From the IMG/VR virus record IMGVR_UViG_3300038441_000458, positions 4,199 through 68,198 of that record: a stretch of 64,000 nucleotides of DNA, one strand, 5' to 3'. The notes under the pieces are model-generated. The model saw only the letters and a program-made list of their open reading frames with translations. It made no database searches and had not been told where the DNA came from. The DNA comes from a virus. The translations under genes and the position numbers were made by a program. Positions 21,719 through 44,481 of this stretch are shown here, piece by piece (position 1 is the first letter of the stretch; every line of letters begins with the position of its first letter).

Positions 21719-21733
21719 ATATTCGTCGACGAA

Positions 21734-33517: not shown

Positions 33518-34187
33518 GGAGGATAGCAGTTGGGACTGGGACCGGAAGTCGCGGCGCTATCGCGGGAAGGACACCGGCCGCTACATGAGTCACGGCCAGG
33601 TGACGAACCTGCGAGACAAATACACGGACGCGCGGCGCACGACGATCCGCAGCCTTGTCCGGGAGACCTTGCCGCTGAACGCGAAGGCTGACCCGCTGTC
33701 GTGGAACGTTGGCGTCCGGGTACTGAGGGAGAAGGGCTGGCGGGAAGTCGAGCGGAGCATGATCGCGCAGTACACGTTCGGCAGAGGCGGCACGAACGCC
33801 ATGACCAGCGCAGACCGCGTGATCGTGCAGCAGATGTTGCGCGACCAGAAGGGCTATTGGGATCGGTTCATGATGGAGGCGTTGCAGAGCCCGGACATGA
33901 GCATGGAGTACGCGGCGAACAGGGCGACGATGTATGCCGATGCCAGCACCGCGTTCTACGAGCGAGGACGCGAGACGGCGTTCGACATTCGGTTGCCAGG
34001 GCATCCGGGAGACGGTGGCACCGAATGCCTCAGCCGATGCCGATGCAGTTGGGAAATCGTGGAACGGAAGACGAAGGTTGAGGCGATCTGGCACGCCAAC
34101 GGCGGCGACAACGTGTGCGACGGATGCCGTGGCAGAGCGGCACAATGGAGCCTGCTCACGTTCGAGCGGGTGACGGAAGGAACGTAG
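33510..34187 (+). CDS. Minor head / MuF-like morphogenesis protein
   Basis: PGDGGTECLSRCRC, VCDGC; follows the portal. Confidence 0.7.
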   Translation: MPREDSSWDWDRKSRRYRGKDTGRYMSHGQVTNLRDKYTDARRTTIRSLVRETLPLNAKADPLSWNVGVRVLREKGWREVERSMIAQYTFGRGGTNAMTSADRVIVQQMLRDQKGYWDRFMMEALQSPDMSMEYAANRATMYADASTAFYERGRETAFDIRLPGHPGDGGTECLSRCRCSWEIVERKTKVEAIWHANGGDNVCDGCRGRAAQWSLLTFERVTEGT

Positions 34188-34621: not shown

Positions 34622-34671
34622 ATGACCATTGGCCGGCTGCCCCGAATGCACCGGCCAATGGTCATTTTTGT
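34622..34671 (+). terminator. Intrinsic terminator
   Basis: ATGACCATTGGCCGG...CCGGCCAATGGTCAT followed by TTTTGT. Confidence 0.75.
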
Positions 34672-34693
34672 GCCTGCAAAATTGGTTCTTGAA

Positions 34694-34788
34694 AACACTT
34701 GACAACAGGCGCAGCGACCCCCATACTTCAGTCAAGAGGTTGAGGCGACGGGATGGACCCGGAGCCGGAAACCAAAGGAGACTCCCAA
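34694..34788 (+). promoter_or_regulatory. Repeated promoter-leader cassette 6
   Basis: TTGACA-N17-CATACT, AGGTTGAGG, cggg-ATGGA-cccg; AAAGGAG RBS variant. Confidence 0.85.
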
Positions 34789-34974
34789 ATGTTCACAGTC
34801 CTGCTTCGATACAACTACTCGACCAACCCGAACGGTGGAGTCGTCCTCGGACGATACTCCAACCGGGAGGAGGCCGCTGAAAAGGCGGCTGAGGTCCAGA
34901 AGGACCTCACCTCCGAGTACTCGGCCGTCGTGGTCGAGAACTCGGAGGTCCTCTGGCCAGTCCACTGGCTATAG
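34789..34974 (+). CDS. Hypothetical protein (cassette gene)
   Basis: ORF behind the leader. Confidence 0.7.
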   Translation: MFTVLLRYNYSTNPNGGVVLGRYSNREEAAEKAAEVQKDLTSEYSAVVVENSEVLWPVHWL

Positions 34975-35017
34975 GGCTCCGGTCCACCGGGAGTAGCGAC
35001 CCCGGTGGACAACCGCA

Positions 35018-35090
35018 AGCGACCAGCGACCAGCGACCAGCGACCAGCGACCAGCGACCAGCGACCAGCGACCAGCGACCAGCGACCAGC
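35018..35090. repeat. Tandem heptamer repeat (AGCGACC) x10
   Basis: Ten perfect copies plus AGC, intergenic. Confidence 0.95.
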
Positions 35091-35107
35091 ACAGAAGGGC
35101 AAACACC

Positions 35108-35362
35108 ATGACCAGCACGACCCGCAAGACGTGGAGCATTCGACCTACCTGCGGCCACGAAGCACTCCACAACTACACCAGCCCGCGCCTTGCGAAGGCG
35201 CACGCGCAAGCGCACGCAGACCGCAGCGGGTGCCCGGTCCACCTGACCTTCACGGACGTTGACGGATCGCCCGTCGCCGTCAAGACCTTGCGACCACGCT
35301 TCCACGGTCCGTGGCTCCCCTGCCAGACCGCGAGGAGCGAGCGCCAGGCGTTCGACGACTAG
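35108..35362 (+). CDS. Hypothetical protein (cassette gene)
   Basis: ATG after GAAGGGCAA. Confidence 0.65.
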   Translation: MTSTTRKTWSIRPTCGHEALHNYTSPRLAKAHAQAHADRSGCPVHLTFTDVDGSPVAVKTLRPRFHGPWLPCQTARSERQAFDD

Positions 35363-35382
35363 CCCGAATATCCGTTCCCCGG

Positions 35383-35476
35383 AACGCTTGACAACGGGAG
35401 CGGCAACCCGCATGATTCACTCAACAGGCGAAGGGGAGCGGATGGACCGCTTCCCGGAGCCGGAAGGGCAAGCACC
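35383..35476 (+). promoter_or_regulatory. Repeated promoter-leader cassette 7
   Basis: TTGACA-N17-CATGAT, ggggagcgg-ATGGA-ccgcttccc, GAAGGGCAA. Confidence 0.85.
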
Positions 35477-35791
35477 ATGTTCTACGTACACCAGCGCTGG
35501 GACGGGCTCTCGGCACGACGCACACAGAGCCACCGCTCGTTGTTCGCAGCCATGAACCACGCTGACGAAATCGCGGCGCTGGTGAAGTCGGAACGGAATA
35601 AGGGCATCTTCGATGCGAACATCCAGCCAGACTACGTGGTCGTCGAGACCGATTCCGGCGCTGAGGTGAAGCGGGTGCGGATCGCGATTGACCCGACCTT
35701 GGAGCCGTGGTGCGGATGGGAGCCGGGTCGGCCGTGGCACGGATGCGGCAAGTGCGACCGCTGCCGGGAGCACGCAGCACGGACGGCGTAG
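35477..35791 (+). CDS. Hypothetical protein with C-terminal Cys cluster (cassette gene)
   Basis: ORF behind the leader; CGKCDRC. Confidence 0.7.
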   Translation: MFYVHQRWDGLSARRTQSHRSLFAAMNHADEIAALVKSERNKGIFDANIQPDYVVVETDSGAEVKRVRIAIDPTLEPWCGWEPGRPWHGCGKCDRCREHAARTA

Positions 35792-35845
35792 GACACACGA
35801 CCAGGAGCCCGGAAACGGGCTCCACCACACTGAAGGGCAAGCACG

Positions 35846-36028
35846 ATGAACATTCTGGAAACGCGGGTGAAGCTGACGTGGATCAGCCCGGAAGGCAAGC
35901 TCCTCACGATCCTGTACTTCTCCAGCGTGGAGAGCGCGAACCACTGGACACGGCAGAAGATCGGAACCTTCATCTTCGACGCGGTGCCCTACCGGACGGA
36001 ACGCCAGCGCGAGGAGTACCAGGCATGA
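35846..36028 (+). CDS. Hypothetical protein (cassette gene)
   Basis: Behind internal hairpin 35804 and GAAGGGCAA. Confidence 0.7.
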   Translation: MNILETRVKLTWISPEGKLLTILYFSSVESANHWTRQKIGTFIFDAVPYRTERQREEYQA

Positions 36029-36101
36029 TCGACGTGCGACGCGGGTAGGATTCATCTACCACCAGGAGCCCGCCTACCGTCCCTGAAAATTGCCCTCGGA
36101 A

Positions 36102-36196
36102 AACGCTTGACAACGGGATACGGAGCCCCCATACTTCAGTTATCAGGTTGAGGGAGCCGGATGGACCGGCTCCCAGAAACCGGAAGGGCAAACACG
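36102..36196 (+). promoter_or_regulatory. Repeated promoter-leader cassette 8
   Basis: TTGACA-N17-CATACT, gggagccgg-ATGGA-ccggctccc, GAAGGGCAA. Confidence 0.85.
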
Positions 36197-36442
36197 ATGA
36201 AGGCTTCCGAACTCCAGATCACCGCCACCATGATCCACAACCGCAAGCTCGACCTCGCCGAAATGACGAACCGCGCGAGCGACCTCTACAACAATGGGAA
36301 GTTCGAACAGGCCGACGAACTCCGACCGCAGATGAACTGCGTTGGCAGCGAAATCGCCGGAATCCTCAGCCTCTGCACCCGGCTCGGCGTCCTCCAGGAC
36401 GTATGTGCCCTGCTTCCGGCGCACACGGAGCGCATCGGCTAG
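36197..36442 (+). CDS. Hypothetical protein (cassette gene)
   Basis: ORF behind the leader. Confidence 0.7.
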   Translation: MKASELQITATMIHNRKLDLAEMTNRASDLYNNGKFEQADELRPQMNCVGSEIAGILSLCTRLGVLQDVCALLPAHTERIG

Positions 36443-36495
36443 AGTACGCAGGGAGCCCGGCGACGGGCTCCCACCACACTGAAGGGCAAGCTCCA

Positions 36496-36702
36496 ATGAC
36501 CACGCAGAAGACCATCACCATCCGCCAGTACTTCCACCCGGTGCTTCGCCGCACGATGCAGTTGCGGGAGATCGGCAACGGACTCGCTGAGGTGTACGAC
36601 AGTGGCGGCTGGACCGGAGCGACGCAGCCGATCCCGGAAGCGGAGAAGAACCTGTACGGGATGGGCTACAAGCTCGACCGGCTGTTTGAGGCAACGCTCT
36701 AG
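36496..36702 (+). CDS. Hypothetical protein (cassette gene)
   Basis: Behind hairpin 36451 and GAAGGGCAA. Confidence 0.7.
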   Translation: MTTQKTITIRQYFHPVLRRTMQLREIGNGLAEVYDSGGWTGATQPIPEAEKNLYGMGYKLDRLFEATL

Positions 36703-36753
36703 GACACGCAGGGAGCCCGGAGACGGGCTCCCACAACGGAGAGGACCAGCACC

Positions 36754-36993
36754 ATGGCATTGCACGCACAACCGTCCCAGGAGCCCGCAGACTGCGGCCA
36801 CCACTACCCGGAGTACATCGGCACGAACGACCTCGGCGAGCCCGTTCACGTTCGGAACGTGTACGTCCACCCGGAGGACCTGACCACCACGCTGTGCCCG
36901 CACTGCTTCGACGATGCGATGTACGCCAGGGTCCCGAAGATGAGCCAGGACCAGATCGCGGCCGCGTTCGGCGCGAACGGCATCGCCAAATAA
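36754..36993 (+). CDS. Hypothetical protein, possible Zn-binding (cassette gene)
   Basis: Behind hairpin 36711; CGH...CPHC. Confidence 0.7.
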   Translation: MALHAQPSQEPADCGHHYPEYIGTNDLGEPVHVRNVYVHPEDLTTTLCPHCFDDAMYARVPKMSQDQIAAAFGANGIAK

Positions 36994-37004
36994 TCGTTCG
37001 CCGG

Positions 37005-37098
37005 AACACTTGACAACGCGAGCGCCAGGCCCCATGATTCAGTCAACGGGTTAGGGAACCGGATGGACCGGCTCCCGACACCACGAAGGGCAAGCAGC
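37005..37098 (+). promoter_or_regulatory. Repeated promoter-leader cassette 9
   Basis: TTGACA-N17-CATGAT, ccgg-ATGGA-ccgg, GAAGGGCAA. Confidence 0.85.
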
Positions 37099-37335
37099 AT
37101 GTATCAGGTTGCAGCATACGGGTACAACCGAATCACCAGCATCGCACACGGCGCAAGCATGGAGGAGGCGCGATCGGTTGCCAGGGAGTACGTGGCGAAG
37201 GAAGACGTTGGACACGTGGCGATCATCGGCGACAGCGGCATCACCGCTGAGTACTGGAAGTGCATCGACGGGAAACCGCGATCATTCGACGCTCGGGCGA
37301 ATCACATGGCCTACCGCGACATGATGTCGGCGTAG
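37099..37335 (+). CDS. Hypothetical protein (cassette gene)
   Basis: ORF behind the leader. Confidence 0.7.
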   Translation: MYQVAAYGYNRITSIAHGASMEEARSVAREYVAKEDVGHVAIIGDSGITAEYWKCIDGKPRSFDARANHMAYRDMMSA

Positions 37336-37387
37336 GAGACGCAGGGAGCCCGGAGACGGGCTCCCGACACCACGAAGGGCAAGTGAC

Positions 37388-37639
37388 ATGCGAAGCTACA
37401 CCATTACCTACCGCGAGAAGGTCAACGGCACCTTCACCGTCACGCACGACCTTCACAACTGGCGACACGTCCAGAACGCAAGCGACCAGGCGAAGGCGTA
37501 CATGGAGGACACGGCGAACCACGGACCGGTTGCTTGGGCGAGGATCACGAACGATGATACCGGTGTCGTCGCCAGAGTCCTGGAATGGGACGGAGGACGC
37601 GTCCGATCCCGGAAGTGGAGCCCAACCTTCGACGCGTAG
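37388..37639 (+). CDS. Hypothetical protein (cassette gene)
   Basis: Behind hairpin 37344 and GAAGGGCAA. Confidence 0.7.
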   Translation: MRSYTITYREKVNGTFTVTHDLHNWRHVQNASDQAKAYMEDTANHGPVAWARITNDDTGVVARVLEWDGGRVRSRKWSPTFDA

Positions 37640-37698
37640 GGATCGACCAGCACGGAGCCCGGAGACGGGCTCCACCACCGACACGGAAGGGTAAGACC

Positions 37699-37857
37699 AT
37701 GAAGCGAGCCACGAAGCAGGAAATCGACGCGCTCTGGGAGAAGTTGCAACGGGTCCAGATACTCCAGGAGCCGAAGGGTCTGACTCCGAGCACCTATCGC
37801 CGGTTGCACCGGCTCGAAATGGCACTGAGCGAGAAGTTCCTCTCGCTCAACATCTAG
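37699..37857 (+). CDS. Hypothetical protein (cassette gene)
   Basis: Behind hairpin 37654 and GAAGGGTAA. Confidence 0.65.
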   Translation: MKRATKQEIDALWEKLQRVQILQEPKGLTPSTYRRLHRLEMALSEKFLSLNI

Positions 37858-37869
37858 CAGGAGACCAGG

Positions 37870-38307
37870 ATGGAGAAGGACCCATACACCGAACTCGGCG
37901 AGGACGCGCTTGAACTGATCCTCTTTGCTGAGAATCATGGACCACTGAACGCAGACCGCGAGCGCATCCTGCGGCTGCTGATGGGCGACTACGAACGCGG
38001 CAACTACAGCACCTACCGCGCGAGCCTGTTGTGGAAGCAGCACCTGAACCGCCAGCGCCAGGCCTACCGCCACACCATGAAGGCTCCGATGTTCTTCGTC
38101 GCCTTGTCGGCAGAGGACCAGGAGCCGACCAGGATCGAGTTCGCGGAACTGGTCGAGTGGTTGGAGAAGCACGAACGCATCCTTATCGAAAACGGTGAGT
38201 ACGACCACCTGCGCAAGCAGCGCGGGTTCAGTGGGAGGAGGATCAAGCTACGTGCGGAGGCGCGCAAGCGCCAGGAGAAGATTCGCTGGCAACCAGTACG
38301 CACCTGA
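37870..38307 (+). CDS. Hypothetical protein
   Basis: AGGAG RBS. Confidence 0.65.
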   Translation: MEKDPYTELGEDALELILFAENHGPLNADRERILRLLMGDYERGNYSTYRASLLWKQHLNRQRQAYRHTMKAPMFFVALSAEDQEPTRIEFAELVEWLEKHERILIENGEYDHLRKQRGFSGRRIKLRAEARKRQEKIRWQPVRT

Positions 38308-38320
38308 AAGGAACACACGA

Positions 38321-38683
38321 ATGGGCAAGCAGGCACGCACACTCATCCTCGCGACGATCATCACCATCACGGCCGTCTTCGGAGGATTCCAGCCCGGAGC
38401 GCCAGCCCTTGCGGCAAGCTGTAGCGGAACGCCAGTGGCCGGGAGCGGTGTGGCGATTGCGAACGTCGCCTGCACCAGCACGACCAGCGTTCGCGTCTGT
38501 CTCCACCAGGACGGCTACCTCGTCGGCTGCACCTACCGCAGCGTGATCGGATTCAAGACCGTCTCCATCGCGCCAGGCTGTTGGGCGACCAGCGCGAGTC
38601 ACCGGTTCCAATCGACCCTTGCGTTCAACGGCGTTCACTACGCGAGCAGCGGGTACAAGTACGCAGCGATGAGTTGCCGCTAG
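38321..38683 (+). CDS. Secreted Cys-rich protein
   Basis: Signal peptide ending PALA; six Cys in the mature part. Confidence 0.7.
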   Translation: MGKQARTLILATIITITAVFGGFQPGAPALAASCSGTPVAGSGVAIANVACTSTTSVRVCLHQDGYLVGCTYRSVIGFKTVSIAPGCWATSASHRFQSTLAFNGVHYASSGYKYAAMSCR

Positions 38684-38709
38684 ACCGCGAGAACCAGGAC
38701 CAGAGGACC

Positions 38710-38744
38710 AGCCCGGAAGCACAACGCTTCCGGGCTCTCTTGTG
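38710..38744 (+). terminator. Putative intrinsic terminator
   Basis: AGCCCGGAAGC-N5-GCTTCCGGGCT then CTCTTGTG; near-identical to the 44484 hairpin. Confidence 0.6.
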
Positions 38745-38763
38745 CCCAAAACCCGTCGACGAA

Positions 38764-38858
38764 AACACTTGACAACAGGATACGCTACCCCCATACTTCA
38801 CTCATTGGAACTGGGGAGCGGGAAGGACCTGCTGGCCGGAACCGGAAGGGCAAACACC
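38764..38858 (+). promoter_or_regulatory. Repeated promoter-leader cassette 10
   Basis: TTGACA-N17-CATACT, agcggg-AAGGA-cctgct, GAAGGGCAA. Confidence 0.85.
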
Positions 38859-39173
38859 ATGAGCGAGCACCGCGATCAGGCTGAGGACCAGGACGGCGTT
38901 CGGACCGGAAGCTACCGCTGCACCTGCATGGGCGTCCTCGGCGAGTGCGAGCGATGCGGCGGCTGCGGCTACCGCACGATCACGATCCACGCCAGCGACC
39001 CGGTGAGCATCGTCGTCACCTTCCCGGATGATTCGTTCATCTCCGAGGACGTTCCGGCTGGCCGGGTACGCACGACGATCACCCGCTGGCTGGCGGAGAC
39101 GAACGCGATCCGGGCGACATGGTTCGTCGGCGACCACGGTCGAGCGGTCTACCCGGAGTGGGTCGGCCGCTAA
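38859..39173 (+). CDS. Hypothetical Zn-finger protein (cassette gene)
   Basis: CTC...CERCGGCG. Confidence 0.7.
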   Translation: MSEHRDQAEDQDGVRTGSYRCTCMGVLGECERCGGCGYRTITIHASDPVSIVVTFPDDSFISEDVPAGRVRTTITRWLAETNAIRATWFVGDHGRAVYPEWVGR

Positions 39174-39228
39174 CACGCAACGGAGCCGGTCAGCGTTGGC
39201 CGGCTCACCACACAGAAGGGCAAGCACG

Positions 39229-39561
39229 ATGACGACCAGGATTCAGCGACACGCACCGAAGCGCTCTGAGACGCCGCAGGATCGCCCACAGCACGTCGGA
39301 ATGAGCATGGGCAGCACATTACCCACACCAGGCGGCACGCAGGGCATCACGGTCTGCCTGCGAGACGACAACGGCGCTATGCGAACTAGTTGGTACACGG
39401 TGCCGCAGGACGAAGGCGATCAGATGCACGAAGACTTCACCCGGTGGCAGGAGGCGAACGGAGAGCACGAACCAGGCTACGGCTACATGGTGCCGATGAG
39501 CGCGGCGCAGGCATGGTTCCGCGAGCGGTTGCGGAGCGTCACGGATAAGGAGCGGTTGTGA
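39229..39561 (+). CDS. Hypothetical protein (cassette gene)
   Basis: Behind hairpin 39183 and GAAGGGCAA. Confidence 0.7.
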   Translation: MTTRIQRHAPKRSETPQDRPQHVGMSMGSTLPTPGGTQGITVCLRDDNGAMRTSWYTVPQDEGDQMHEDFTRWQEANGEHEPGYGYMVPMSAAQAWFRERLRSVTDKERL

Positions 39562-39824
39562 TCGAGTTACGGATGAAGCGCCAGGTGAAGGGTGGCGAGC
39601 CCGTCGAGGAGACGGTGGAGACCTTGCGACACACGTGGGCGGCTGCGGCCGTCTTGACCAGGATTCAGACAGCGTTCACGATCATGGAGTACCAGACGAT
39701 GCTCGACACGGAGGACATGCTCATCATGGCGAGCGAGCACGAAGTTGTCGTCGTGACCAGGAACGGAGCAGGCGACGAAACCACGCTGGAACCAGCCGAA
39801 ATATCCGTTCTTGAAAACACTTGA
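39558..39824 (+). CDS. Hypothetical protein
   Basis: TAAGGAG RBS, GTGA overlap; stop lies in the next -35 box. Confidence 0.65.
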   Translation: MIELRMKRQVKGGEPVEETVETLRHTWAAAAVLTRIQTAFTIMEYQTMLDTEDMLIMASEHEVVVVTRNGAGDETTLEPAEISVLENT

Positions 39825-39952
39825 CAACTAGTACGTTAGGCCCCATGATTCATTCAACAAGTTCAGGGTGGCCGGATGGACCGGCTCCCAACACCACGCT
39901 GGCGGCGACCTTGCCGCCAGCACCACTCACTCCCGGAAAGGGGATCACCACC
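39816..39952 (+). promoter_or_regulatory. Repeated promoter-leader cassette 11 (with an extra hairpin)
   Basis: TTGACA-N17-CATGAT, gccgg-ATGGA-ccggc, extra GCTGGCGGC..GCCGCCAGC stem. Confidence 0.8.
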
Positions 39953-40255
39953 ATGATCACGCTCACCATCACCACCGCCAACGGCCACCAGTCCACCCGT
40001 ATGTACGGTGACGACCTCGACCAGGCGGAGGAGGCGTATGCCGAATTCCTGTGCCAGCGAGCGGCTGGCGCAACGGTCCTCGACCTTCGCGATGCCGAAG
40101 GCGACAAGATCGCCGGGTACGATGCCCAGAGCGGCATCCTGTCCTCTCACGAATCGTGGGAATACTTCCTGCGCAAGTGGGACCGCGAGTCCTTGGAGGC
40201 GCGCCAGAAGGTGCGCCAGGAGTTCGGGCGAGCGGTGGCCGTAGCCACCGCATAG
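39953..40255 (+). CDS. Hypothetical protein (cassette gene)
   Basis: ORF behind the leader. Confidence 0.7.
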   Translation: MITLTITTANGHQSTRMYGDDLDQAEEAYAEFLCQRAAGATVLDLRDAEGDKIAGYDAQSGILSSHESWEYFLRKWDRESLEARQKVRQEFGRAVAVATA

Positions 40256-40296
40256 CGCGCCAGCGAGCGCCAGCGAGCGCCAGGAAGGAAACGATC

Positions 40297-40857
40297 ATGG
40301 GCTTGTGCCAGGTGACAGAAGTTCGGGCGGCGAAGAAGGATCAGGGCAAGTGCGGGAAGTGCGGCCAGGCGTTGCCAGCAGGAAGCTCGTACCGCTGGTG
40401 GAAGGGTCGGTTCGGCCCGAAGCACGTGCGGTGCGTCGGGTGCAAGGTCGAGGACTGGGAGCGCGAGACCAACCCGCTGCGAGCCGAACATATGCAGGCG
40501 GATGAGACGCTCGGGCTGGTGGAGCGAGACGTGGACGTGGCCGATCCGAGCGGTGCGGCCGTTCACCTGCGAGACGCGATCAGCGCAACGGAGAGCATCG
40601 TTGACACGCTGACCGAACGACTGGATGGGTGGAGCGGAACCGGGCTCGAGAACAGCGAGCAGTACAGCGCAACGGAGACCACGCGCGACGAACTGCAACA
40701 GTGGATCGACGACGCAGAGAGCGCAGCCGATGAGCTCGAAGGGATGGAGCAGCCAGACAGCGCAGACGATGAGGAGGCGTGGGAGGAGTGGGAGAAGGAA
40801 ATCCGGGACGCCTACGACGCGCTGCCGGAGTATCCACCGCTGGACCTTGGCGCATGA
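40297..40857 (+). CDS. Zn-ribbon plus acidic helical protein
   Basis: CGKCG...CVGC then a highly acidic C-terminal half. Confidence 0.7.
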   Translation: MGLCQVTEVRAAKKDQGKCGKCGQALPAGSSYRWWKGRFGPKHVRCVGCKVEDWERETNPLRAEHMQADETLGLVERDVDVADPSGAAVHLRDAISATESIVDTLTERLDGWSGTGLENSEQYSATETTRDELQQWIDDAESAADELEGMEQPDSADDEEAWEEWEKEIRDAYDALPEYPPLDLGA

Positions 40858-41186
40858 ACCTGCACGACAGAGTCGCCTTGCAGCGGATCGTCGGGGAGTG
40901 GGCGGCTGAGACCTTCCCTGACGACACCAGAGACACCATCAGCGCGAGCATCCGCCAGGAGTCCCAGAATCTCCGCCAGGCGGTGTTGAACGCCAGGACG
41001 GCACCAGCACCCATCGACCCGCCATTCAACACGGAGATAGCCCGCAGCGTGAGCACGATGTACCTGCTGCTGCTGCGCCTTGCCGATAAGGAAGGATTCA
41101 GCCTCCACCACGAAGCGATCCTGCGGCACGCGCTACACACAATGACGACGCCGAAACCGGCGACCACGGAGGACCAGGCGACATGA
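40854..41186 (+). CDS. MazG-like (dNTP pyrophosphatase fold) protein, degenerate
   Basis: LQRIVGEWAAETFP...LLLLRLADKEGFSL. Confidence 0.5.
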   Translation: MNLHDRVALQRIVGEWAAETFPDDTRDTISASIRQESQNLRQAVLNARTAPAPIDPPFNTEIARSVSTMYLLLLRLADKEGFSLHHEAILRHALHTMTTPKPATTEDQAT

Positions 41187-41419
41187 ACATCATCCTGCGA
41201 GGAGCGAAACCACCGAAGTATTCGTGGATCGGGAAGTGGCAGATCACGGACTGCCACACGGTCGTCGAGTTGACCGAAGACGACGTTGACGCGGTGAAGG
41301 AAATCGATGGTGGCTACAACCAGCGACCAGACATGAAGATCATGTGCCCGGTCTGCGAGGAGTGGCAGTACGCCAAACGCTACTACCCGCCAGAATATGA
41401 GGACCAGTACGGCCGCTAA
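41183..41419 (+). CDS. Hypothetical Zn-ribbon protein
   Basis: DCH...CPVC. Confidence 0.6.
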   Translation: MNIILRGAKPPKYSWIGKWQITDCHTVVELTEDDVDAVKEIDGGYNQRPDMKIMCPVCEEWQYAKRYYPPEYEDQYGR

Positions 41420-41434
41420 ATATTCGTCGACGAA

Positions 41435-41532
41435 AACACTTGACAACGGACGCGCCAGGCCCCATGATTAAGGAGTTGAAGCGAGTCGGGCCGGATGGAC
41501 CGGGCGACGAAGCTCACGAAGGGCAAGCGACC
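41435..41532 (+). promoter_or_regulatory. Repeated promoter-leader cassette 12
   Basis: TTGACA-N17-CATGAT, ccgg-ATGGA-ccgg, GAAGGGCAA. Confidence 0.85.
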
Positions 41533-41775
41533 ATGACACTCATCAACAATCACATCGACAGCGAAGCGGCGAAGGCGAAGATCGAGGAACTGAAGGTTGA
41601 GCTTCAGGCGATCTACAACGCGGCAGACCGCGACTACGACATGATCTGGGCGAAGATGAGCGCCAACACGGACATGGACCCGGTCGAATGGACTGCGCTT
41701 CAGGAGCAGATGAACGCAGCGATCCAGATCATGCTCTTGGCGCAGGCGGCAGGAGCGAAGCGGTTTACGGTCTAG
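41533..41775 (+). CDS. Hypothetical protein (cassette gene)
   Basis: ORF behind the leader. Confidence 0.7.
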   Translation: MTLINNHIDSEAAKAKIEELKVELQAIYNAADRDYDMIWAKMSANTDMDPVEWTALQEQMNAAIQIMLLAQAAGAKRFTV

Positions 41776-41829
41776 AGACCACGAAGGGGAGCCCGGAGAC
41801 GGGCTCCCTCACCACGAAGGGCAAACGAC

Positions 41830-42201
41830 ATGTGGCACAAAAATCGGCAGTGGAACATCACGGACGCGCTGAACAGCGCGACGCTGGCATTCGACATGAC
41901 CCGGATTGACTGGACGCTCTGCACGGCATGGAGGCTCCCAACGAAGGAAGGCAACCTCCTGTTCCTGAACGACAGCCTGAGCGAGGACGGCGCGGTGGAG
42001 TACGGCGTGGTCCATGAGGAGACGCTAATCCAGATCGAGAGCCTGACCATTCGCGACCAGGAGCAGGCGGCGCGGCTGATCCAGCAGACGGTCGAGACGT
42101 TCGAGGAGAAGGGTCCACTCGGCAGCATCGTCACGGACGTTCCGCAAGTGGCACAGTGGCAACTGACGACACACGGCGAACGCTGCTACTTCTGCGCGTA
42201 G
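41830..42201 (+). CDS. Hypothetical protein (cassette gene)
   Basis: Behind hairpin 41787 and GAAGGGCAA; LFLNDSLSEDGAVEYGV. Confidence 0.75.
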   Translation: MWHKNRQWNITDALNSATLAFDMTRIDWTLCTAWRLPTKEGNLLFLNDSLSEDGAVEYGVVHEETLIQIESLTIRDQEQAARLIQQTVETFEEKGPLGSIVTDVPQVAQWQLTTHGERCYFCA

Positions 42202-42252
42202 GACACGACCAGAGCCGGTCACGTTGGCCGGCTCACCACGAAGGGCAAGAAC

Positions 42253-42465
42253 ATGGGAGCATTAAATCGCCGGTCGGAGGAGTTGACTGACGTTCACGTT
42301 GAGTGGATCGCACCAGAGGAGCGGGATCATCCGGCCGATGAATTCCGGGTGGCGAAGGAGAGCGGAGCCATATACCTTGCGACCAGGAAGGAAGTCGAGA
42401 CGTTCGCGGATTCGCTTCAGGCGTTGCTCGACATGACGAAGGACACGACCAATGGCAAGCGTTGA
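42253..42465 (+). CDS. Hypothetical protein (cassette gene)
   Basis: Behind hairpin 42212 and GAAGGGCAA. Confidence 0.65.
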   Translation: MGALNRRSEELTDVHVEWIAPEERDHPADEFRVAKESGAIYLATRKEVETFADSLQALLDMTKDTTNGKR

Positions 42466-42829
42466 CCTGCGGCAGACCATCGAGCGCGCGTGCGTCCTCC
42501 TGGTCCGGGAAGTGGACGCGCGAGGAGAGCCGACCAGCGACCGCGAGGCGTACGCGACCAGGCACCTGCACTACCTCCTCGACGAAGGGCTCAGCTTCCT
42601 TGCCCTTGCGGAACGCGGCGCAACGAACGACACCATCATCGAGCGCGGCTGGCGCGACACGGAGGCGCACCGTATGGCATACCAGGATCGGAGCCAGGCG
42701 ACACCAGCGGAGCGCGAGCGCGTGCGAATCATGGCCCGCAACCTGTTCCGAGCCCAACCGGTCGTCATGAAAATTGGTCCCCGTAAACACTTGACAACGC
42801 GAACCGCAGGCCCCATACTTCGATCATAA
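42452..42829 (+). CDS. Hypothetical protein
   Basis: AAGGA RBS; C-terminus reads through the next promoter. Confidence 0.55.
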   Translation: MASVDLRQTIERACVLLVREVDARGEPTSDREAYATRHLHYLLDEGLSFLALAERGATNDTIIERGWRDTEAHRMAYQDRSQATPAERERVRIMARNLFRAQPVVMKIGPRKHLTTRTAGPILRS

Positions 42830-42881
42830 GGTTGAGGCGGGAGGAGGGACCTTCCACCGAAGACCACGAAGGGCAAGCGAC
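42786..42881 (+). promoter_or_regulatory. Repeated promoter-leader cassette 13
   Basis: TTGACA-N17-CATACT, AGGTTGAGG, gggagg-AGGGA-ccttcc, GAAGGGCAA. Confidence 0.85.
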
Positions 42882-43067
42882 ATGAGCAACCAGACAGTCA
42901 CCTGCGGCAAGTGCGAAGACGAAGGCATCATCGTTTGGGTCGTCCCGACCACGCTGGAGAATCCAGAAGGCATCGACTACCGCTACTGCGATTGCAAGAT
43001 CGGCGAGGAGCGAGACTCGGTGGACCAGAATGACGGGTTCGACGCGTGGGACCGCACGCAGGACTAG
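42882..43067 (+). CDS. Small Zn-binding protein (cassette gene)
   Basis: CGKC...CDC. Confidence 0.7.
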   Translation: MSNQTVTCGKCEDEGIIVWVVPTTLENPEGIDYRYCDCKIGEERDSVDQNDGFDAWDRTQD

Positions 43068-43116
43068 CAGCAACGGGAGCCGGGAAACCGGCTCCCTCAC
43101 CAGAAGGGCAAGCGAT

Positions 43117-43611
43117 ATGACCAGAAGGGCACCAGAGGACGTTATCACCTACGCGATAGCGCGCCAGGCGGCACAACGGATGCGCGACGAATGCGAATCA
43201 GGCTCGGAGAAGCTACACGAAGACTGGCTCACCGATCTGGTGTTCCTCGGAGCGTTGACCGTCCAGACGATCATCGACGAAACGAAGCAGCGCATGGCGG
43301 AGGAGCAGGATGAGTACATGAAGGCGCTGGTCGGCGACCGCCAGATAGTCGCGAAGCTCTTCCCGCCGATGAAGGACGGCGAGACCATCGAAGGCTACGA
43401 CTGGTATCACGGTACGATGCAGCCAGGCGACCGGTTCAAACCGCGAGCGATCTACGTCGAGCAGAATGTGTGGGGTGGAGACGGCGTGGCAGGCATCCAG
43501 AAGCGATGCGCCTATCGAAGCAGCGGCACATGGAAGCTGTTGCCCATAGAGGACGATCCGAACGCGTACGACGCCTACCGGCACGGCAACGGACCAGGCC
43601 AGAACGCTTGA
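43117..43611 (+). CDS. Hypothetical protein (cassette gene)
   Basis: Behind hairpin 43075 and GAAGGGCAA. Confidence 0.7.
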   Translation: MTRRAPEDVITYAIARQAAQRMRDECESGSEKLHEDWLTDLVFLGALTVQTIIDETKQRMAEEQDEYMKALVGDRQIVAKLFPPMKDGETIEGYDWYHGTMQPGDRFKPRAIYVEQNVWGGDGVAGIQKRCAYRSSGTWKLLPIEDDPNAYDAYRHGNGPGQNA

Positions 43612-43637
43612 CAACGGAGCCACCCGGAGGCGAGAAT
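43608..43637 (+). promoter_or_regulatory. Promoter of the tRNA cluster
   Basis: TTGACA-N18-GAGAAT immediately before tRNA-Leu. Confidence 0.55.
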
Positions 43638-43646: not shown

Positions 43647-43723
43647 GCGTCTTTAGCCCAATTGGCAGAGGCGACCGCTTCAAAGGCGGTAGGTTCCAGG
43701 TTCGAATCCTGGAAGACGCACCA
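43647..43723 (+). tRNA. tRNA-Leu(CAA), short variable loop
   Basis: GCGTCTT/AAGACGC acceptor, ACCGC-TTCAAAG-GCGGT, GGTTCGAATCC, ACCA end. Confidence 0.85.
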
Positions 43724-43794
43724 GGTGGTTGTAGTCGGAAACGATTCCCACCGAAGACCAGCGGGGAGTTGTTTGCCCTTCGACCCGCTGGCAT

Positions 43795-43877
43795 GGATGG
43801 TGACTGGCAGGACGAAGACACCCGCTTGAAACGGGCTGGCCCACCAGGGCTCCAGGGTTCGATTCCCTGACCATCCT
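43795..43877 (+). tRNA. tRNA-Ser(TGA), long variable arm, atypical D-arm
   Basis: GGATGGT/ACCATCC acceptor, CCCG-CTTGAAA-CGGG, GCCC-ACCA-GGGC variable arm, CAGGG-TTCGATT-CCCTG. Confidence 0.75.
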
Positions 43878-43895
43878 CCGCTGACGAATAGGCGA

Positions 43896-43969
43896 AGTCC
43901 CGTAGCTCAACAGGGAGAGCACTGGTTGAAAGACACCAGAGGCACCAGGCTCAACACCTGGCGGGTGAT
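43896..43969 (+). pseudogene. Degenerate tRNA-like element
   Basis: TAGCTC..GAGC D-arm, CTGGT/ACCAG stem with 8-nt loop, CCAGG-CTCAACA-CCTGG; only 4 acceptor pairs. Confidence 0.55.
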
Positions 43970-44011
43970 GCAAGTACGTCAATCCTGAATCAGCCAGGAT
44001 AGTCGGCGACA

Positions 44012-44084
44012 CGGTGTCTGGCCCAATTGGCAGGGCACCCGGTTTGGGACCGGGAGATTGCAGGTTCGAGCCCTGCGACGCCGA
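44012..44084 (+). tRNA. tRNA-Pro(TGG)
   Basis: CGGTGTC/GACGCCG acceptor, CCCGG-TTTGGGA-CCGGG, GCAGG-TTCGAGC-CCTGC. Confidence 0.85.
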
Positions 44085-44190
44085 CCGGGAAGGGTTCCAT
44101 CCTCCCTTCCCACACCGCAGGCGGAACCAAGCGCCATCTGCGGCGAGCCCGGAACAGGGTAACTTGACCCTTCCCCCGGTCCGGGCTCAT

Positions 44191-44263
44191 GCCAGTGAAG
44201 CTCATGAGGATGAGCGGCTGTTTTGTAAACAGCAGGTAGCGGGTTCGATTCCTGCGACTGGCT
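44191..44263 (+). tRNA. tRNA-Thr(TGT)
   Basis: GCCAGT/ACTGGC acceptor, GCTGT-TTTGTAA-ACAGC, GCGGG-TTCGATT-CCTGC. Confidence 0.85.
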
Positions 44264-44395
44264 CCGGCGATGCGCGAGGATTAGATTCGACCCTGCCTCG
44301 CGAGCAGCCGAACGGGAGCGGCAGGGATTGTTGTCATGACTTTATTTGCAGAGTTCATGGTGGGCGGCGATCCCTGCTCAACCCGTTACCCGCGA

Positions 44396-44481
44396 GGACC
44401 GGCACACTCATTGGCGAGAGTAGCTGGCTGTAAACCAGTGGCGCACGCGCTTTGGCGGTTCGATTCCGTCCCGATCCACCA
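44396..44481 (+). tRNA. tRNA-Tyr(GTA)
   Basis: GCTGG-CTGTAAA-CCAGT, long variable arm, GGCGG-TTCGATT-CCGTC, ACCA end; one acceptor mismatch. Confidence 0.8.

What the first reader, a model, noticed from the sequence alone, without database searches (positions are those of the whole stretch)
34694..43611. Modular gene-cassette array: about 25 mostly small orphan genes, each behind a stereotyped promoter or hairpin leader
Seen: 13 copies (TTGACA at 2193, 6709, 13681, 19659, 21739, 34699, 35388, 36107, 37010, 38769, 39821, 41440, 42791) of AAC(A/G)CTTGACAAC, a 17-nt spacer, CATACT/CATGAT, an AGGTTGAGG-like box, a hairpin and usually GAAGGGCAA-ATG. TTGACA-to-ATG distance is 89-93 nt in 12 of the 13. 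Twelve further hairpins of the same stem family precede internal genes. Eight promoters sit in this 9-kb stretch. The cargo ORFs (mostly 50-190 aa) look unrelated to one another. Distant copies share long exact blocks, e.g. 38 nt AATATTCGTCGACGAAAACACTTGACAACGGACGCGCC near 21718 and 41419. Known analogues: PeSL cassettes of T4-type phages and start-associated sequences of cluster K mycobacteriophages. Inference: a plug-in expression/recombination platform for early host-takeover or anti-defence genes, shuffled by homologous recombination, plausibly by the phage's own Rad52-like SSAP.
Basis: partly seen in the sequence, partly recalled or inferred. Interest (0 to 1): 0.9.

Follow-up and report, generated by a model that had tools for sequence, protein, structure and literature searches.

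The report
Repeated promoter-leader cassettes driving phage orphan genes
An uncultured soil phage carries about 25 small genes of unknown function, each behind one of two standard control units (a strong promoter with a folded RNA leader, or a hairpin plus a fixed ribosome site), a layout like gene-cassette systems already described in other phages.

Summary
The 68-kb phage has 13 full copies of one unit, all on the + strand. Each unit has UP-like A-tracts, AACRCTTGACAAC, a 17-nt spacer, CATACT or CATGAT, a covarying three-tier RNA hairpin with an invariant A-N-GGA pentaloop, and usually GAAGGGCAA before ATG. Eight copies lie at 34.7-43.6 kb. Twelve further hairpins of the same stem family, mostly with GNRA loops, precede internal genes.

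The 25 array genes match no Pfam or PHROG family and have no paralogues. The array fills a slot between the portal-side gene and the scaffold gene. That slot is 11.2 kb here, against a median of 1.2 kb (maximum 4.7 kb) in 52 related loci.

Two relatives have the same architecture built from unrelated sequences. This argues for function at the level of expression, not a recent duplication.

My best reading is standardised early-expression cassettes for accessory genes, of the PeSL/SAS kind. Recombination between units is supported only indirectly, by mosaic leaders and one cargo gene relocated in a relative. No close relatives or raw reads were available to test it. The ANGGA loop fits CsrA/Rsm-type recognition, but the host is unknown.

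This scan has found PeSL-like arrays before on other DNA, so I rate this a new variant of a known kind.

The parts
34673..34788 (+). Class A unit 1: UP-like A-tracts, AACACTTGACAAC, N17, CATACT, leader hairpin with AUGGA loop, AAGGAG SD
   Evidence: (46.9 bits)
35362..35476 (+). Class A unit 2 (CATGAT; AUGGA loop; GAAGGGCAA)
   Evidence: (42.4 bits)
36081..36196 (+). Class A unit 3 (CATACT; AUGGA loop; 9-bp continuous stem; GAAGGGCAA)
   Evidence: (54.5 bits)
36984..37098 (+). Class A unit 4 (CATGAT; AUGGA loop; GAAGGGCAA)
   Evidence: (41.8 bits)
38743..38858 (+). Class A unit 5 (CATACT; AAGGA loop; stem with G.U pair; GAAGGGCAA)
   Evidence: (34.5 bits)
39795..39952 (+). Class A unit 6 (CATGAT; AUGGA loop), with an extra 10-bp hairpin before a GGAAAGGGGA SD; TTGACA-to-ATG distance 132 nt
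   Evidence: (37.6 bits)
41414..41532 (+). Class A unit 7 (CATGAT; AUGGA loop; outer helices AGC:GCU and GUCG:CGAC covary; GAAGGGCAA)
   Evidence: 36.3 bits; 38-nt block shared with the 21739 unit
42765..42881 (+). Class A unit 8 (CATACT; AGGGA loop; GAAGGGCAA); the promoter lies inside the 3' end of gene 42452-42829
   Evidence: (44.8 bits)
2167..2285 (+). Class A unit outside the array (TTGACA at 2193)
   Evidence: 32.1 bits
6683..6800 (+). Class A unit outside the array (6709), before a clamp/RusA-like gene
13655..13771 (+). Class A unit outside the array (13681); outer helix GGC:GCC
19633..19749 (+). Class A unit outside the array (19659), directly after the tandem-HTH gene
21713..21829 (+). 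Class A unit outside the array (21739)
35804..35845 (+). Class B unit: 8-bp GGAGCCCG hairpin, GAAA loop, then GAAGGGCAA-N5-ATG
36451..36495 (+). Class B unit (9 bp, GCGA loop, GAAGGGCAA)
36711..36753 (+). Class B hairpin (9 bp, GAGA loop) followed by an ordinary GGAGAGGA SD
37344..37387 (+). Class B unit (9 bp, GAGA loop, GAAGGGCAA)
37654..37698 (+). Class B unit (8 bp, GAGA loop, GAAGGGTAA)
39183..39228 (+). Class B unit, variant stem GAGCCGGTCA (10 bp, GCGT loop), GAAGGGCAA
41786..41829 (+). Class B unit (10 bp, GAGA loop, GAAGGGCAA)
42212..42252 (+). Class B unit, variant stem GAGCCGGTCA (10 bp), GAAGGGCAA
43075..43116 (+). Class B unit (9 bp, GAAA loop, GAAGGGCAA)
2498..2539 (+). Class B unit outside the array (GAAA loop, GAAGGGCAA)
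14026..14067 (+). Class B hairpin outside the array (GAAA loop; ordinary SD)
20022..20071 (+). Class B hairpin outside the array (GTTC loop; ordinary SD)
34789..35362 (+). Transcription unit 1 cargo: genes 34789-34974 and 35108-35362
   Evidence: no Pfam or PHROG family
35477..36028 (+). Unit 2 cargo: genes 35477-35791 and 35846-36028
36197..36993 (+). Unit 3 cargo: genes 36197-36442, 36496-36702 and 36754-36993
37099..38683 (+). Unit 4 cargo: genes 37099-37335, 37388-37639, 37699-37857, 37870-38307 and 38321-38683
38859..39824 (+). Unit 5 cargo: genes 38859-39173, 39229-39561 and 39558-39824
39953..41419 (+). Unit 6 cargo: genes 39953-40255, 40297-40857 (Zn-ribbon plus acidic helical protein, a large unannotated family), 40854-41186 and 41183-41419
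41533..42829 (+). Unit 7 cargo: genes 41533-41775, 41830-42201 (the only cargo with a homologue in relative G002, at another locus), 42253-42465 and 42452-42829
42882..43611 (+). Unit 8 cargo: genes 42882-43067 and 43117-43611
34622..34665 (+). 15-bp hairpin followed by TTTTTGTG: terminator-like, just before the first array promoter
   Evidence: fold; not listed by the simple scan
38710..38736 (+). 11-bp hairpin followed by CTCTTGTG, before class A unit 5
43603..43637 (+). AACGCTTGACAAC box with GAGAAT -10 and no class A leader: promoter of the tRNA array
43647..44481 (+). Five tRNA genes (Leu, Ser, Pro, Thr, Tyr)
44484..44510 (+). Intrinsic-terminator-like hairpin with T-run that closes the inserted block
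33510..34187 (+). Conserved gene on the left border of the slot (follows the portal in relatives)
44697..46022 (+). Conserved gene on the right border of the slot (precedes the major capsid protein gene in relatives)

Best explanation
The stretch is an 8-operon array of accessory genes built from two kinds of standard expression units.

Class A unit. This is a strong host-RNA-polymerase (sigma-70/sigma-A type) promoter. It has a perfect TTGACA, a 17-nt spacer, CATACT or CATGAT, and two A-tracts at about -57 and -43 that look like an UP element. It is fused to a roughly 60-nt leader. The first 45 nt of the leader fold into a three-tier hairpin beginning about 4-5 nt from the predicted RNA 5' end. 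The hairpin is capped by an invariant A-N-GGA pentaloop and is followed by a fixed translation-initiation region (GAAGGGCAA, 4-6 nt, ATG).

Class B unit. This follows the stop codon of an upstream gene. It is an 8-10-bp G+C hairpin of the same stem family, mostly with a GNRA tetraloop and without a U-run, placed just 5' of the same initiation region.

Inferred mechanism:
- The promoters fire on the host polymerase early in infection.
- The 5'-proximal hairpins protect the messages from 5'-end-dependent decay.
- The hairpins also insulate each ribosome site from whatever coding sequence lies upstream, so any small gene placed behind a unit is expressed at a set level.
- The invariant class A loop is probably also a protein-binding site that gives all 13 transcripts a common post-transcriptional control.

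The roughly 100-nt units are also the only long homologies in the region. They are therefore the likely places where cassettes are gained, lost or moved, as in PeSL.

What is shown: the elements, their number, their strand bias, the RNA covariation, the orphan cargo, the expanded slot, and the analogous system in relatives. What is inferred: the timing, the stabilising and insulating role, the protein binding, and the recombination.
For: Repeats and strand bias:
- 17 boxes against 0.12 expected, all on +.
- 13 promoter-like sites in 33500-45000 against 1.7 +/- 1.4 in shuffles.

Leader structure:
- All 12 leaders whose folded segment reached the start codon show a hairpin capped by the A-N-GGA loop. 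In 11 of them it is enclosed by two outer helices. The 35388 segment was cut short by my script.
- On the raw MAFFT alignment 75.7% of cells pair, against 65.4% in shuffles (0 of 500 reach it) and 26-51% when partners are slid.
- The covariation score is 0.251 against 0.096 (0 of 500). 7 of 13 pairs show double changes, and G.U pairs occur. The model-fitted alignment gives the same picture.
- The covariance model finds 13 hits at 32-54 bits, all on +, then nothing above 17 bits. It finds none in 67 other loci totalling 1.09 Mb. No Rfam family matches.

Loops: A-N-GGA in 13 of 13 class A units. GNRA in 9 of 12 class B units.

Fixed initiation region: 23 copies of GAAGGG(C/T)A(A/G) lie 4-7 nt before an ATG. 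15 of them precede 15 of the 25 array genes.

The homology stops at the unit borders. Pairwise matches are 84-154 nt at 70-82% identity and do not run on into the cargo genes.

Family-wide architecture:
- Relative G002 (MCP 62% identical) has 8 promoters of the form TTGCAY-N17-TAnnnT, all on one strand. 7 of the 8 have the fixed site GGAGACGACC 67-74 nt downstream.
- G002 has 22 such sites on + and 0 on -. It also has GTAGCC...GGCTAC leader hairpins and stop-hairpin-site units.
- Relative G001:C4 (TerL 57%, MCP 64%) has 8 such sites on + and 0 on - in 34 kb, with the same promoter box.

The five class A units outside the array lie in the replication arm, which holds ParB-like, DnaD/O-like, DnaB-like and helicase genes.

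Slot: the portal-to-scaffold distance is 11,179 bp here, against a median of 1,242 bp and a maximum of 4,683 bp in 52 related loci.
Against: - No transcript data exist. The start sites, the timing and the promoter strength are all predictions.
- The host is unknown, so 'host-type promoter' rests on the general bacterial consensus.
- A pure stabiliser or insulator would not need an invariant loop. The relatives' leader hairpins have variable loops, so part of the function here is unexplained.
- Class B stems hardly vary, so for them RNA structure cannot be told apart from a DNA-level inverted repeat.
- The extended -35 box also occurs without a usable -10 at 19117 and 28258. This suggests it is in addition an operator.
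- The gene calls come from my own crude codon-score caller.
- One cargo protein is not an orphan. Gene 40297-40857 has 427 representatives at E <= 0.001.
Confidence: 0.65

Rival explanations
1. The units exist chiefly as recombination linkers, as in PeSL. Homologous recombination between copies excises, inserts and reorders cassettes, and expression comes along as a by-product. This overlaps with the best explanation and does not exclude it.
For: - Leader segments are reassorted. 70% of informative site pairs are incompatible, and neighbouring sites are more compatible than distant ones (PHI-like statistic 0.882 against 0.935 in permutations, p = 0.007).
- Exact shared blocks: 38 nt in 1 pair and 22-24 nt in 6 pairs.
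- The slot is about 9 times the family median.
- Cargo gene 41830-42201 has its only homologue in G002 in that phage's early region, not in the slot.
- PeSL mini-circles and indels bounded by PeSLs are documented in T4-type phages (PMC2839356, passages).
Against: - No genome with the same units but different cargo was found. The only hit, L094, is the same phage at 99.97% identity.
- Unit identity is only 70-82% and the exact blocks are short.
- Stem covariation may itself inflate the PHI-like signal.
- The relatives keep the architecture with quite different sequences, which points to selection on expression.
- The proposed SSAP is unconfirmed.
Confidence: 0.3
2. The class A hairpin is a binding site for a CsrA/RsmA-family protein of the host. 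Thirteen strongly transcribed leaders would either titrate the regulator early in infection or use it to stabilise or time the early messages.
For: - The loop is A-N-GGA on a G-C-closed stem in 13 of 13 units, with N variable: AUGGA 8, AAGGA 4, AGGGA 1.
- Duss et al. 2014 (PMC4005645, passages) give ANGGAX on a stem as the high-affinity consensus. They report AGGGA and AAGGA pentaloops as high-affinity RsmE targets.
- A second GGA at or next to the SD, about 20-25 nt downstream, is present in 8 of 13 units (listing).
- Class B hairpins share the stem but have GNRA loops instead, so the loop is class-specific.
Against: - The host is unknown.
- The phage encodes no CsrA.
- The MAG that holds the closest relative's contig has no CsrA hit. 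Only 28 of 151 sampled genomes of that MAG's phylum have one (this count includes the unpublished genome G040).
- About 30% of bacterial genomes have csrA (PMC13443453, passages).
- 8 of 13 loops have U at position N. The passages I read speak only of purines there.
- 5 of 13 units lack the second GGA.
- The relatives' leader hairpins have no GGA loops.
Confidence: 0.13
3. The conserved flanks of the -35 (AAC[A/G]C...AC) are an operator for the phage's tandem-HTH protein (19144-19629). That protein would switch all 13 (or 17) promoters off or on together. The stereotypy would then reflect regulator binding and not only promoter strength.
For: - The box is conserved well beyond the hexamer in 17 sites.
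- It occurs where no proper -10 follows. One full copy and a half copy lie just before the HTH gene, and one lies downstream of a separate TTGACA-N17-TAGCAT promoter before terS.
- The HTH protein matches HTH_23 and HTH_28, and scores near threshold for sigma-70 region 4.
- Its homologues are kept in both relatives, next to a promoter unit. In those relatives the -35 lies in a different, partly palindromic box, GTTGCAC-N3-GGCAAC.
Against: - No binding data exist.
- A perfect TTGACA with UP-like tracts needs no activator.
- The box is not palindromic, although the protein has two HTH domains.
- This reading explains the promoter part only, not the leader or the class B units.
Confidence: 0.25
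4. The hairpins are nut/put-like antitermination signals that let polymerase read through the terminators between cassettes.
For: - The hairpins lie shortly downstream of every promoter.
- Class B loops are GNRA-type, like the fold of lambda boxB (this comparison is recalled, not tested).
- Terminator-like hairpins lie at 34622 and 38710.
Against: - No boxA-like element or N-like protein was identified.
- Only 2-3 terminator-like hairpins lie in the array, each directly followed by a fresh promoter, so read-through is not needed.
- Class A loops are not GNRA-like.
Confidence: 0.05

Closest known systems
PeSL (promoter-early stem-loop) cassettes of T4-type phages (Arbiol, Comeau, Krisch and co-workers 2010, PMC2839356; 2014, PMC4122927)
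   Same: - Repeated roughly 100-bp composite motifs with a sigma-70-consensus early promoter, a conserved G/C stem-loop and an SD.
- All copies in one orientation.
- Concentrated among orphan genes in a hyperplastic region. The paper describes eight PeSLs in about 5 kb, similar to eight units in 9 kb here.
- Proposed as both expression units and recombination linkers.
   Different: - The phage lineage is unrelated, with no sequence similarity.
- Here the conserved hairpin lies downstream of the promoter in the transcribed leader. It has three covarying tiers and an invariant ANGGA loop. It is not an upstream terminator.
- A second, promoter-less unit class punctuates the operons.
- Exchange of cargo at the motifs and mini-circles are shown for PeSLs and are untested here.
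Start-associated sequences (SAS) and extended SAS of cluster K mycobacteriophages (Pope et al. 2011, PMC3203893)
   Same: - An asymmetric conserved motif holding the SD core a few bases before ATG.
- One orientation, and only before non-structural genes of unrelated families.
- About half of the motifs have an imperfect inverted repeat just upstream, which corresponds to the class B hairpin plus GAAGGGCAA.
- The function is unknown there as well.
   Different: - The sequence differs (GGGATAGGAGCCC against GAAGGGCAA), as do the phage group and the host.
- Here the motif is also fused to a repeated promoter-leader.
- The relatives G002 and G001:C4 use a third sequence, GGAGACGACCA(A)TG.
Host-takeover module of Bacillus phage SPO1 (Stewart et al. 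1998, recalled; described in PMC6873191, passages)
   Same: A cluster of about 24-26 mostly small early genes in several short operons. Their promoters and ribosome sites are typical of highly expressed genes.
   Different: - It lies in the terminal redundancy, not inside the head module.
- As far as I read, it has no shared structured leader or fixed hairpin units.
- Functions are known for several SPO1 genes and for none here.
CsrA/RsmA binding hairpins (RsmZ/RsmY stem-loops; Duss et al. 2014, PMC4005645)
   Same: A GGA in an A(N)GGA loop directly on a stem, with multiple copies per cell. AAGGA and AGGGA pentaloops are reported as high-affinity targets.
   Different: - These hairpins sit in mRNA leaders of a phage, not in a sponge sRNA.
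- 8 of 13 loops are AUGGA.
- The host, and whether it has CsrA, is unknown.
- No binding was tested.

Membership tests
PeSL cassettes (T4-type phages) | Repeated motif holding a sigma-70-consensus early promoter | tested here: met
   TTGACA-N17-CATACT/CATGAT in 13 units. The box is enriched 17 against 0.12 expected.
PeSL cassettes (T4-type phages) | Adjacent conserved stem-loop that acts as terminator of the upstream unit | tested here: inconclusive
   The conserved stem-loop here is downstream of the promoter, in the leader. Upstream terminator-like hairpins are seen before only some units: 34622, 38710, and hairpins before 6709 and 19659.
PeSL cassettes (T4-type phages) | Preferential location among ORFans in hyperplastic regions | tested here: met
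   8 of 13 units lie in a 9-kb block of 25 genes with no Pfam or PHROG family. The slot is 11.2 kb against a median of 1.2 kb in 52 related loci.
PeSL cassettes (T4-type phages) | Insertions, deletions and replacements of ORFans between close relatives bounded by the motifs | not testable with these tools
PeSL cassettes (T4-type phages) | Mini-circles or junctions formed by recombination between motifs | not testable with these tools
   Only short Logan contigs were available. Four of the five 'joints' with letters listed between their sides match other leader copies of the same genome. The other has sides of only 21 letters and stays unexplained.
PeSL cassettes (T4-type phages) | Sequence homology or common descent with T4-type motifs and genomes | tested here: not met
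   No DNA match to any of 50,697 phage records. The best TerL hit is 38% identical and not from a T4-type phage.
SAS/ESAS of cluster K mycobacteriophages | Conserved asymmetric motif 3-8 nt before start codons, in one orientation, before non-structural genes | tested here: met
   23 copies of GAAGGG(C/T)A(A/G) lie 4-7 nt before ATG on the + strand. This is an analogy only.
SAS/ESAS of cluster K mycobacteriophages | The 13-bp sequence GGGATAGGAGCCC | tested here: not met
   The motif here is GAAGGGCAA. The SAS sequence is taken from the paper's passages.
SAS/ESAS of cluster K mycobacteriophages | A subset with an imperfect inverted repeat immediately upstream (ESAS) | tested here: met
   9 of 12 class B hairpins are followed within 5-12 nt by the motif.
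CsrA/Rsm binding site | GGA presented in an A(N)GGA(X) loop on a stem | tested here: met
   13 of 13 class A loops. The closing G-C pairs are invariant.
CsrA/Rsm binding site | Second GGA at the SD at a bridging distance | tested here: inconclusive
   8 of 13 units have one (listing).
CsrA/Rsm binding site | A CsrA-family protein present in the infected cell | not testable with these tools
   The host is unknown. There is none in the phage and none in the MAG G001. 28 of 151 genomes of that MAG's phylum have one (includes the unpublished G040).
Rfam RNA families | Match to a curated covariance model | tested here: not met
   Only tRNAs reach the gathering score in the window. There are 0 matches at E <= 1 in 34600-38900.

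The most novel reading that the evidence does not exclude
The 13 strongly transcribed early leaders carry a purpose-built high-affinity A-N-GGA hairpin that captures the host's CsrA/Rsm-type global translational regulator, or a still unknown loop-specific RNA-binding protein. On this reading the phage uses its own early mRNAs as a regulator sponge or as a common post-transcriptional switch. The relatives' lineage-specific promoter, hairpin and start-site triplets would then mark co-evolution of whole expression 'operating systems' with different hosts.
Probability: 0.15. Interest if true: 0.8.

Novelty: new variant of a known kind. Interest (0 to 1): 0.5.

Why it matters
- It extends the PeSL/SAS idea of portable, standardised expression units in front of interchangeable orphan genes to an unrelated, uncultured lineage of soil phages.
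- It shows the two ideas combined in one genome: promoter-leader units together with promoter-less hairpin/start-site units.
- Related phages keep the architecture while replacing every sequence element. This is a natural experiment on what such units need in order to work.
- The class A leader is a well-supported new RNA motif: 13 copies, covariation, and no Rfam match. Its invariant loop points to a specific binding partner that could be tested directly.
- The units are compact natural 'parts' (promoter, insulator hairpin, ribosome site) of possible use in high-GC bacteria.
- The 25 cargo genes are candidates for host-takeover or counter-defence functions.

Tried and rejected
- Close relatives with the same units were not found. 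Megablast and blastn against phage records gave no match. The promoter pattern in viral contigs gave 5 single, unrelated hits. In metagenome contigs it gave one fragment of the same phage (L094, 99.97% identical) and one chance hit. A portal search in viral contigs found nothing.
- I laid contigs of 4 soil-metagenome runs on 33400-45000. Only short contigs were served. Four of the five joints with letters listed between their sides carry the spacer or hairpin of the 6709, 2193 or 21739 units of the same genome, and the joint 39884->42857, found in the same three runs, lies between two leader copies. I therefore read these as other leader copies laid in pieces. The remaining joint, 34496->36818 in X5, has sides of 21 letters and stays unexplained. 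This gives no verdict on deletion variants or circles.
- Parts of the stretch without contig cover are not interpreted.
- Cargo against 166 fetched loci (2.45 Mb) by tblastn, and cargo against cargo by blastp, gave no hits.
- The Atlas search for 43117-43611 gave no usable hit.
- The fold search of the 40297-40857 model gave no PDB match at E <= 0.001. The weak similarity to a PARP1 zinc finger is not interpreted.
- RegA (PF01818) and CsrA (PF02599) were not found in the phage.
- I considered the class B hairpins as intrinsic terminators and rejected this. No U-run follows them, and the terminator scan lists none of them.
- I considered RNase III sites and rejected them from general knowledge, because the stems are too short (8-13 bp).
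- Host identification failed. Relatives' contigs sit in MAGs of several phyla, which is unreliable for phage contigs.
- I asked for no supplementary files of any paper. The PeSL and SAS supplements may hold motif lists that I did not see.

Full report
WHAT THE WINDOW IS. The window is bases 4199-68198 of a 68,198-bp IMG/VR virus record. The record has a 69-bp direct terminal repeat and is rated 100% complete. G+C is 61-66% throughout. By my own codon-score caller every predicted gene lies on the + strand.

The left arm holds replication genes: ParB-like, DnaD/O-like, DnaB-like and helicase. From 28.3 kb come terS, terL, the portal, the major capsid protein and tail genes.

No cultured phage is close. 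There is no DNA match among 50,697 phage records, and the best TerL hit is 38% identical. The stretch is held by soil-metagenome runs: 7 of the 15 listed hold at least half of its sampled words.

AACRCTTGACAAC occurs 17 times with up to one mismatch, always on the + strand, against 0.12 expected. The whole genome has 16 exact copies forward and none reverse.

Thirteen copies are full units. Each has:
- two A-tracts about 21 and 9 nt upstream of the hexamer;
- TTGACA, a 17-nt spacer, and CATACT (6 units) or CATGAT (7 units);
- a leader of about 60 nt;
- in 11 of 13 units, GAAGGGCAA 4-6 nt before ATG.

The TTGACA-to-ATG distance is 89-93 nt in 12 of 13 units. The 39821 unit has 132 nt because it carries an extra 10-bp hairpin. 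Eight units lie between 34,699 and 42,791. The consensus scan of 33500-45000 finds 13 promoter-like sites against 1.7 +/- 1.4 in shuffles.

The placing of the A-tracts matches the two subsites of an UP element. That comparison is from my recall of the E. coli literature and was not tested here.

THE LEADER IS A STRUCTURED RNA. Folds of the 12 leaders whose segment reached the start codon all give a hairpin capped by the A-N-GGA loop. In 11 of them it sits inside two outer helices. The 35388 segment was cut short by my script. The architecture is:
- an outer helix, usually GGUU:AACC, but GGC:GCC in two units and AGC:GCU in one;
- a middle helix: GGG:CCC, GGC:GCC, GGCG:CGCC or GUCG:CGAC;
- an apical helix: CCGG:CCGG, CGGG:CCCG, GCGG:CCGC, GGAGG:CCUUC, or GCGGG:CCUGC with a G.U pair;
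- a pentaloop: AUGGA (8 units), AAGGA (4) or AGGGA (1).

On the unfitted MAFFT alignment 75.7% of cells pair. Shuffles give 65.4% (0 of 500 reach the observed value), and slid partners give 26-51%. The covariation score is 0.251 against 0.096 (0 of 500). 7 of 13 pairs show changes on both sides. The model-fitted alignment gives 78.1% and 0.268.

A covariance model built on this structure finds exactly the 13 units at 32-54 bits, all on +, and then nothing above 17 bits. It finds nothing in 67 other loci totalling 1.09 Mb or in the two relatives' records. Rfam has no matching family.

G.U pairs and the exclusive strand argue for RNA and against a DNA-level repeat.

A SECOND UNIT CLASS. Twelve hairpins of the same stem family (GGGAGCC(C/G)G...; two have the variant GAGCCGGTCA) lie 5-14 nt after a stop codon. 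They have 8-10 bp. 9 of 12 have GNRA loops (GAAA 4, GAGA 4, GCGA 1). No U-run follows them. In 9 of 12 the same GAAGGG(C/T)AA start region follows within 5-12 nt. Nine of the twelve lie in the array.

Across the window, 23 copies of the start motif lie 4-7 nt before an ATG. 15 of them precede 15 of the 25 array genes. Structural genes use ordinary GGAG-type sites.

The array is thus eight short operons of 2-5 genes. Each is headed by a class A unit and punctuated by class B units. Terminator-like hairpins lie at 34622 and 38710. A further box-type promoter at 43608 drives five tRNAs, and a clean terminator closes the block at 44484.

THE CARGO.
- None of the 25 array genes, nor the gene at 34361-34603 just upstream (26 tested), reaches a Pfam family. 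One sub-threshold hit is ignored.
- None matches a PHROG.
- There are no paralogues among them and no hits in 166 fetched loci.
- They look like ordinary small proteins. Several have CxxC pairs and many are acidic.
- They are not all true orphans. Gene 40297-40857 has 427 representatives at E <= 0.001 in the 1.84-billion-protein library. It folds with pLDDT 97 into a zinc ribbon plus helical bundle, with no PDB match at E <= 0.001.
- Gene 41830-42201 has two word-search relatives.

THE SLOT. In relatives found through the capsid protein the gene order is conserved: portal, then in some the 33510 homologue, then a gap, the 44697 homologue, the 46067 homologue and the MCP. The portal-to-scaffold distance in 52 loci runs from about 0 to 4,683 bp, with a median of 1,242 bp. 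Here it is 11,179 bp. In the three closest relatives (L096, L097, L023) it is 1.1-2.1 kb. The array is therefore a lineage-specific expansion of a variable slot in the head module.

THE RELATIVES HAVE THE SAME ARCHITECTURE IN OTHER WORDS. This is the most informative result. I fetched the 62-kb record G002 (MCP 62% identical) and 34 kb of contig G001:C4 (TerL 57%, MCP 64%).

G002 has:
- 8 promoters of the form GTTGCAC-N3-GGCAAC...TATAAT/TATACT (a TTGCAY -35, a 17-nt spacer), all on one strand;
- in 7 of the 8, the fixed start site GGAGACGACC(A)ATG 67-74 nt downstream;
- 22 such start sites on that strand and none on the other;
- GTAGCC-loop-GGCTAC hairpins beginning about 6 nt after the -10, and several stop-hairpin-start-site units.

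G001:C4 has 8 start sites (0 on the other strand) and the same promoter box.

None of these sequences resembles those of our phage. The leader loops of the relatives vary. The architecture of promoter, 5'-proximal hairpin, fixed start site and promoter-less hairpin/start-site units is thus a family trait. Its components are replaced together between lineages. This argues for selected expression functions, and for co-adaptation to a host or to a phage-encoded factor. It argues against a recent accidental duplication.

In G002 these units lie in the early/replication arm, not in the portal-scaffold slot. The one array gene with a G002 homologue (41830-42201; 38% over 121 residues) lies there too. 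Overall 24 of my 100 called proteins have a G002 hit.

MECHANISM. I take the class A units to be early promoters for the host polymerase. The hairpins of both classes would protect 5' ends, primary or processed, and would isolate the ribosome site from variable upstream sequence. Diverse small genes would then be expressed reliably. This part is inference.

The invariant A-N-GGA loop needs more than that. The same stem carries GNRA loops in class B, so the loop is class-specific and probably binds a protein. It fits the CsrA/Rsm consensus: ANGGAX on a stem, with AAGGA and AGGGA pentaloops reported as high-affinity (PMC4005645, passages). 8 of 13 units have a second GGA at the SD.

Against the CsrA reading:
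- The host is unknown.
- The phage has no CsrA.
- The MAG holding the closest relative's contig has none. Only 28 of 151 genomes sampled from that MAG's phylum do (this includes the unpublished G040).
- The relatives' loops lack GGA.
I give this reading about 0.13.

The extended -35 box may in addition be an operator of the tandem-HTH protein. That belongs to a neighbouring finding.

RECOMBINATION. The units are the only long repeats in the region. Pairwise matches are 84-154 nt at 70-82% identity and stop at the unit borders. Exact blocks reach 38 nt (1 pair) and 22-24 nt (6 pairs). Segments are reassorted among copies, and a PHI-like permutation test gives p = 0.007. Stem covariation may contribute to that signal.

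Together with the expanded slot and the relocated cargo gene, this fits PeSL-type shuffling (PMC2839356, passages). Direct evidence is missing. No genome shares the units with other cargo, and the contig data could not show junctions. The proposed Rad52-like annealing protein is unconfirmed.

COMPARISON AND NOVELTY. The closest known systems are PeSLs (promoter plus stem-loop among ORFans) and cluster K SAS/ESAS (a fixed start-associated sequence with an upstream inverted repeat; PMC3203893, passages). SPO1's host-takeover module is a functional parallel (PMC6873191, passages). This is not a member of either family by descent or by sequence. It works like both at once.

This scan has already reported PeSL-like promoter-leader arrays on other DNA. 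The general phenomenon is therefore not new. What is new:
- the three-tier covarying leader with an invariant ANGGA loop;
- the coupling of two unit classes on one stem family;
- the position inside the head module;
- the finding that related phages keep the architecture while replacing every element.

I rate it a new variant of a known kind, with interest about 0.5.

Noticed in passing
window 35018-35090: A perfect 7-nt tandem repeat (AGCGACC x 10.4) lies in the intergenic leader of gene 35108-35362, just before its GAAGGGCAA start site. Contigs of two runs show a 1-nt deletion at 35035. It may be a variable-number repeat that tunes expression of this cistron.
   Followed up: partly
window 40297-40857: This cargo protein of 186 aa (net charge -24) belongs to a large unannotated family: 427 representatives at E <= 0.001, and 87 at E <= 1e-10. 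Among the ten closest members it has an N-terminal CxxC...YxWWKGR zinc ribbon, a helical bundle, an acidic linker and a mostly conserved C-terminal PELDLGA tail. The AlphaFold model has pLDDT 97. There is no PDB fold match at E <= 0.001.
   Followed up: partly
window 19095-19143 and 28253-28265: AACACTTGACAAC boxes occur without a usable -10. One and a half copies lie before the tandem-HTH gene (19144-19629; HTH_23, HTH_28, near-threshold sigma-70 region 4). One lies downstream of a TTGACA-N17-TAGCAT promoter before terS. The placement looks like an operator.
   Followed up: partly
G002 (L178-L181) and G001:C4 (L183, L184): Two related phages carry their own stereotyped system: a GTTGCAC-N3-GGC(A/T)AC promoter box, GTAGCC...G(G)CTAC hairpins and the fixed start site GGAGACGACCA(A)TG. 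G002 has 22 start sites and G001:C4 has 8, all on one strand.
   Followed up: yes
L076 and L049 (viral-contig loci): More distant relatives have other repeated intergenic palindromes. TTGTCTGGCGCGCCAGACAA occurs 9 times in 21 kb of L076, and 3 of those copies lie in its 4.7-kb portal-scaffold gap. GTCACGTCAACGTGAC occurs 5 times in L049.
   Followed up: partly
Its nearest Atlas clusters carry PF27148 (Slr1353_N, dsRNA-binding-domain-like), commonest in Chloroflexota and viruses. One structural row is Rad52/Rad22 at TM 0.48.
   Followed up: partly
window 34572-34601: A further promoter-like site (TTGCCA-18-TAGAAT) lies inside the 3' end of gene 34361-34603, just before the terminator-like hairpin at 34622.
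   Followed up: no
window 5937-6014: An AACGCTTGACAAC box with GCATAAT as -10 has a different, shorter leader hairpin (GGCGG-AAGA-CCGCC) and an AAGGAG SD, before gene 6015-6659. This is a third leader type.
   Followed up: no
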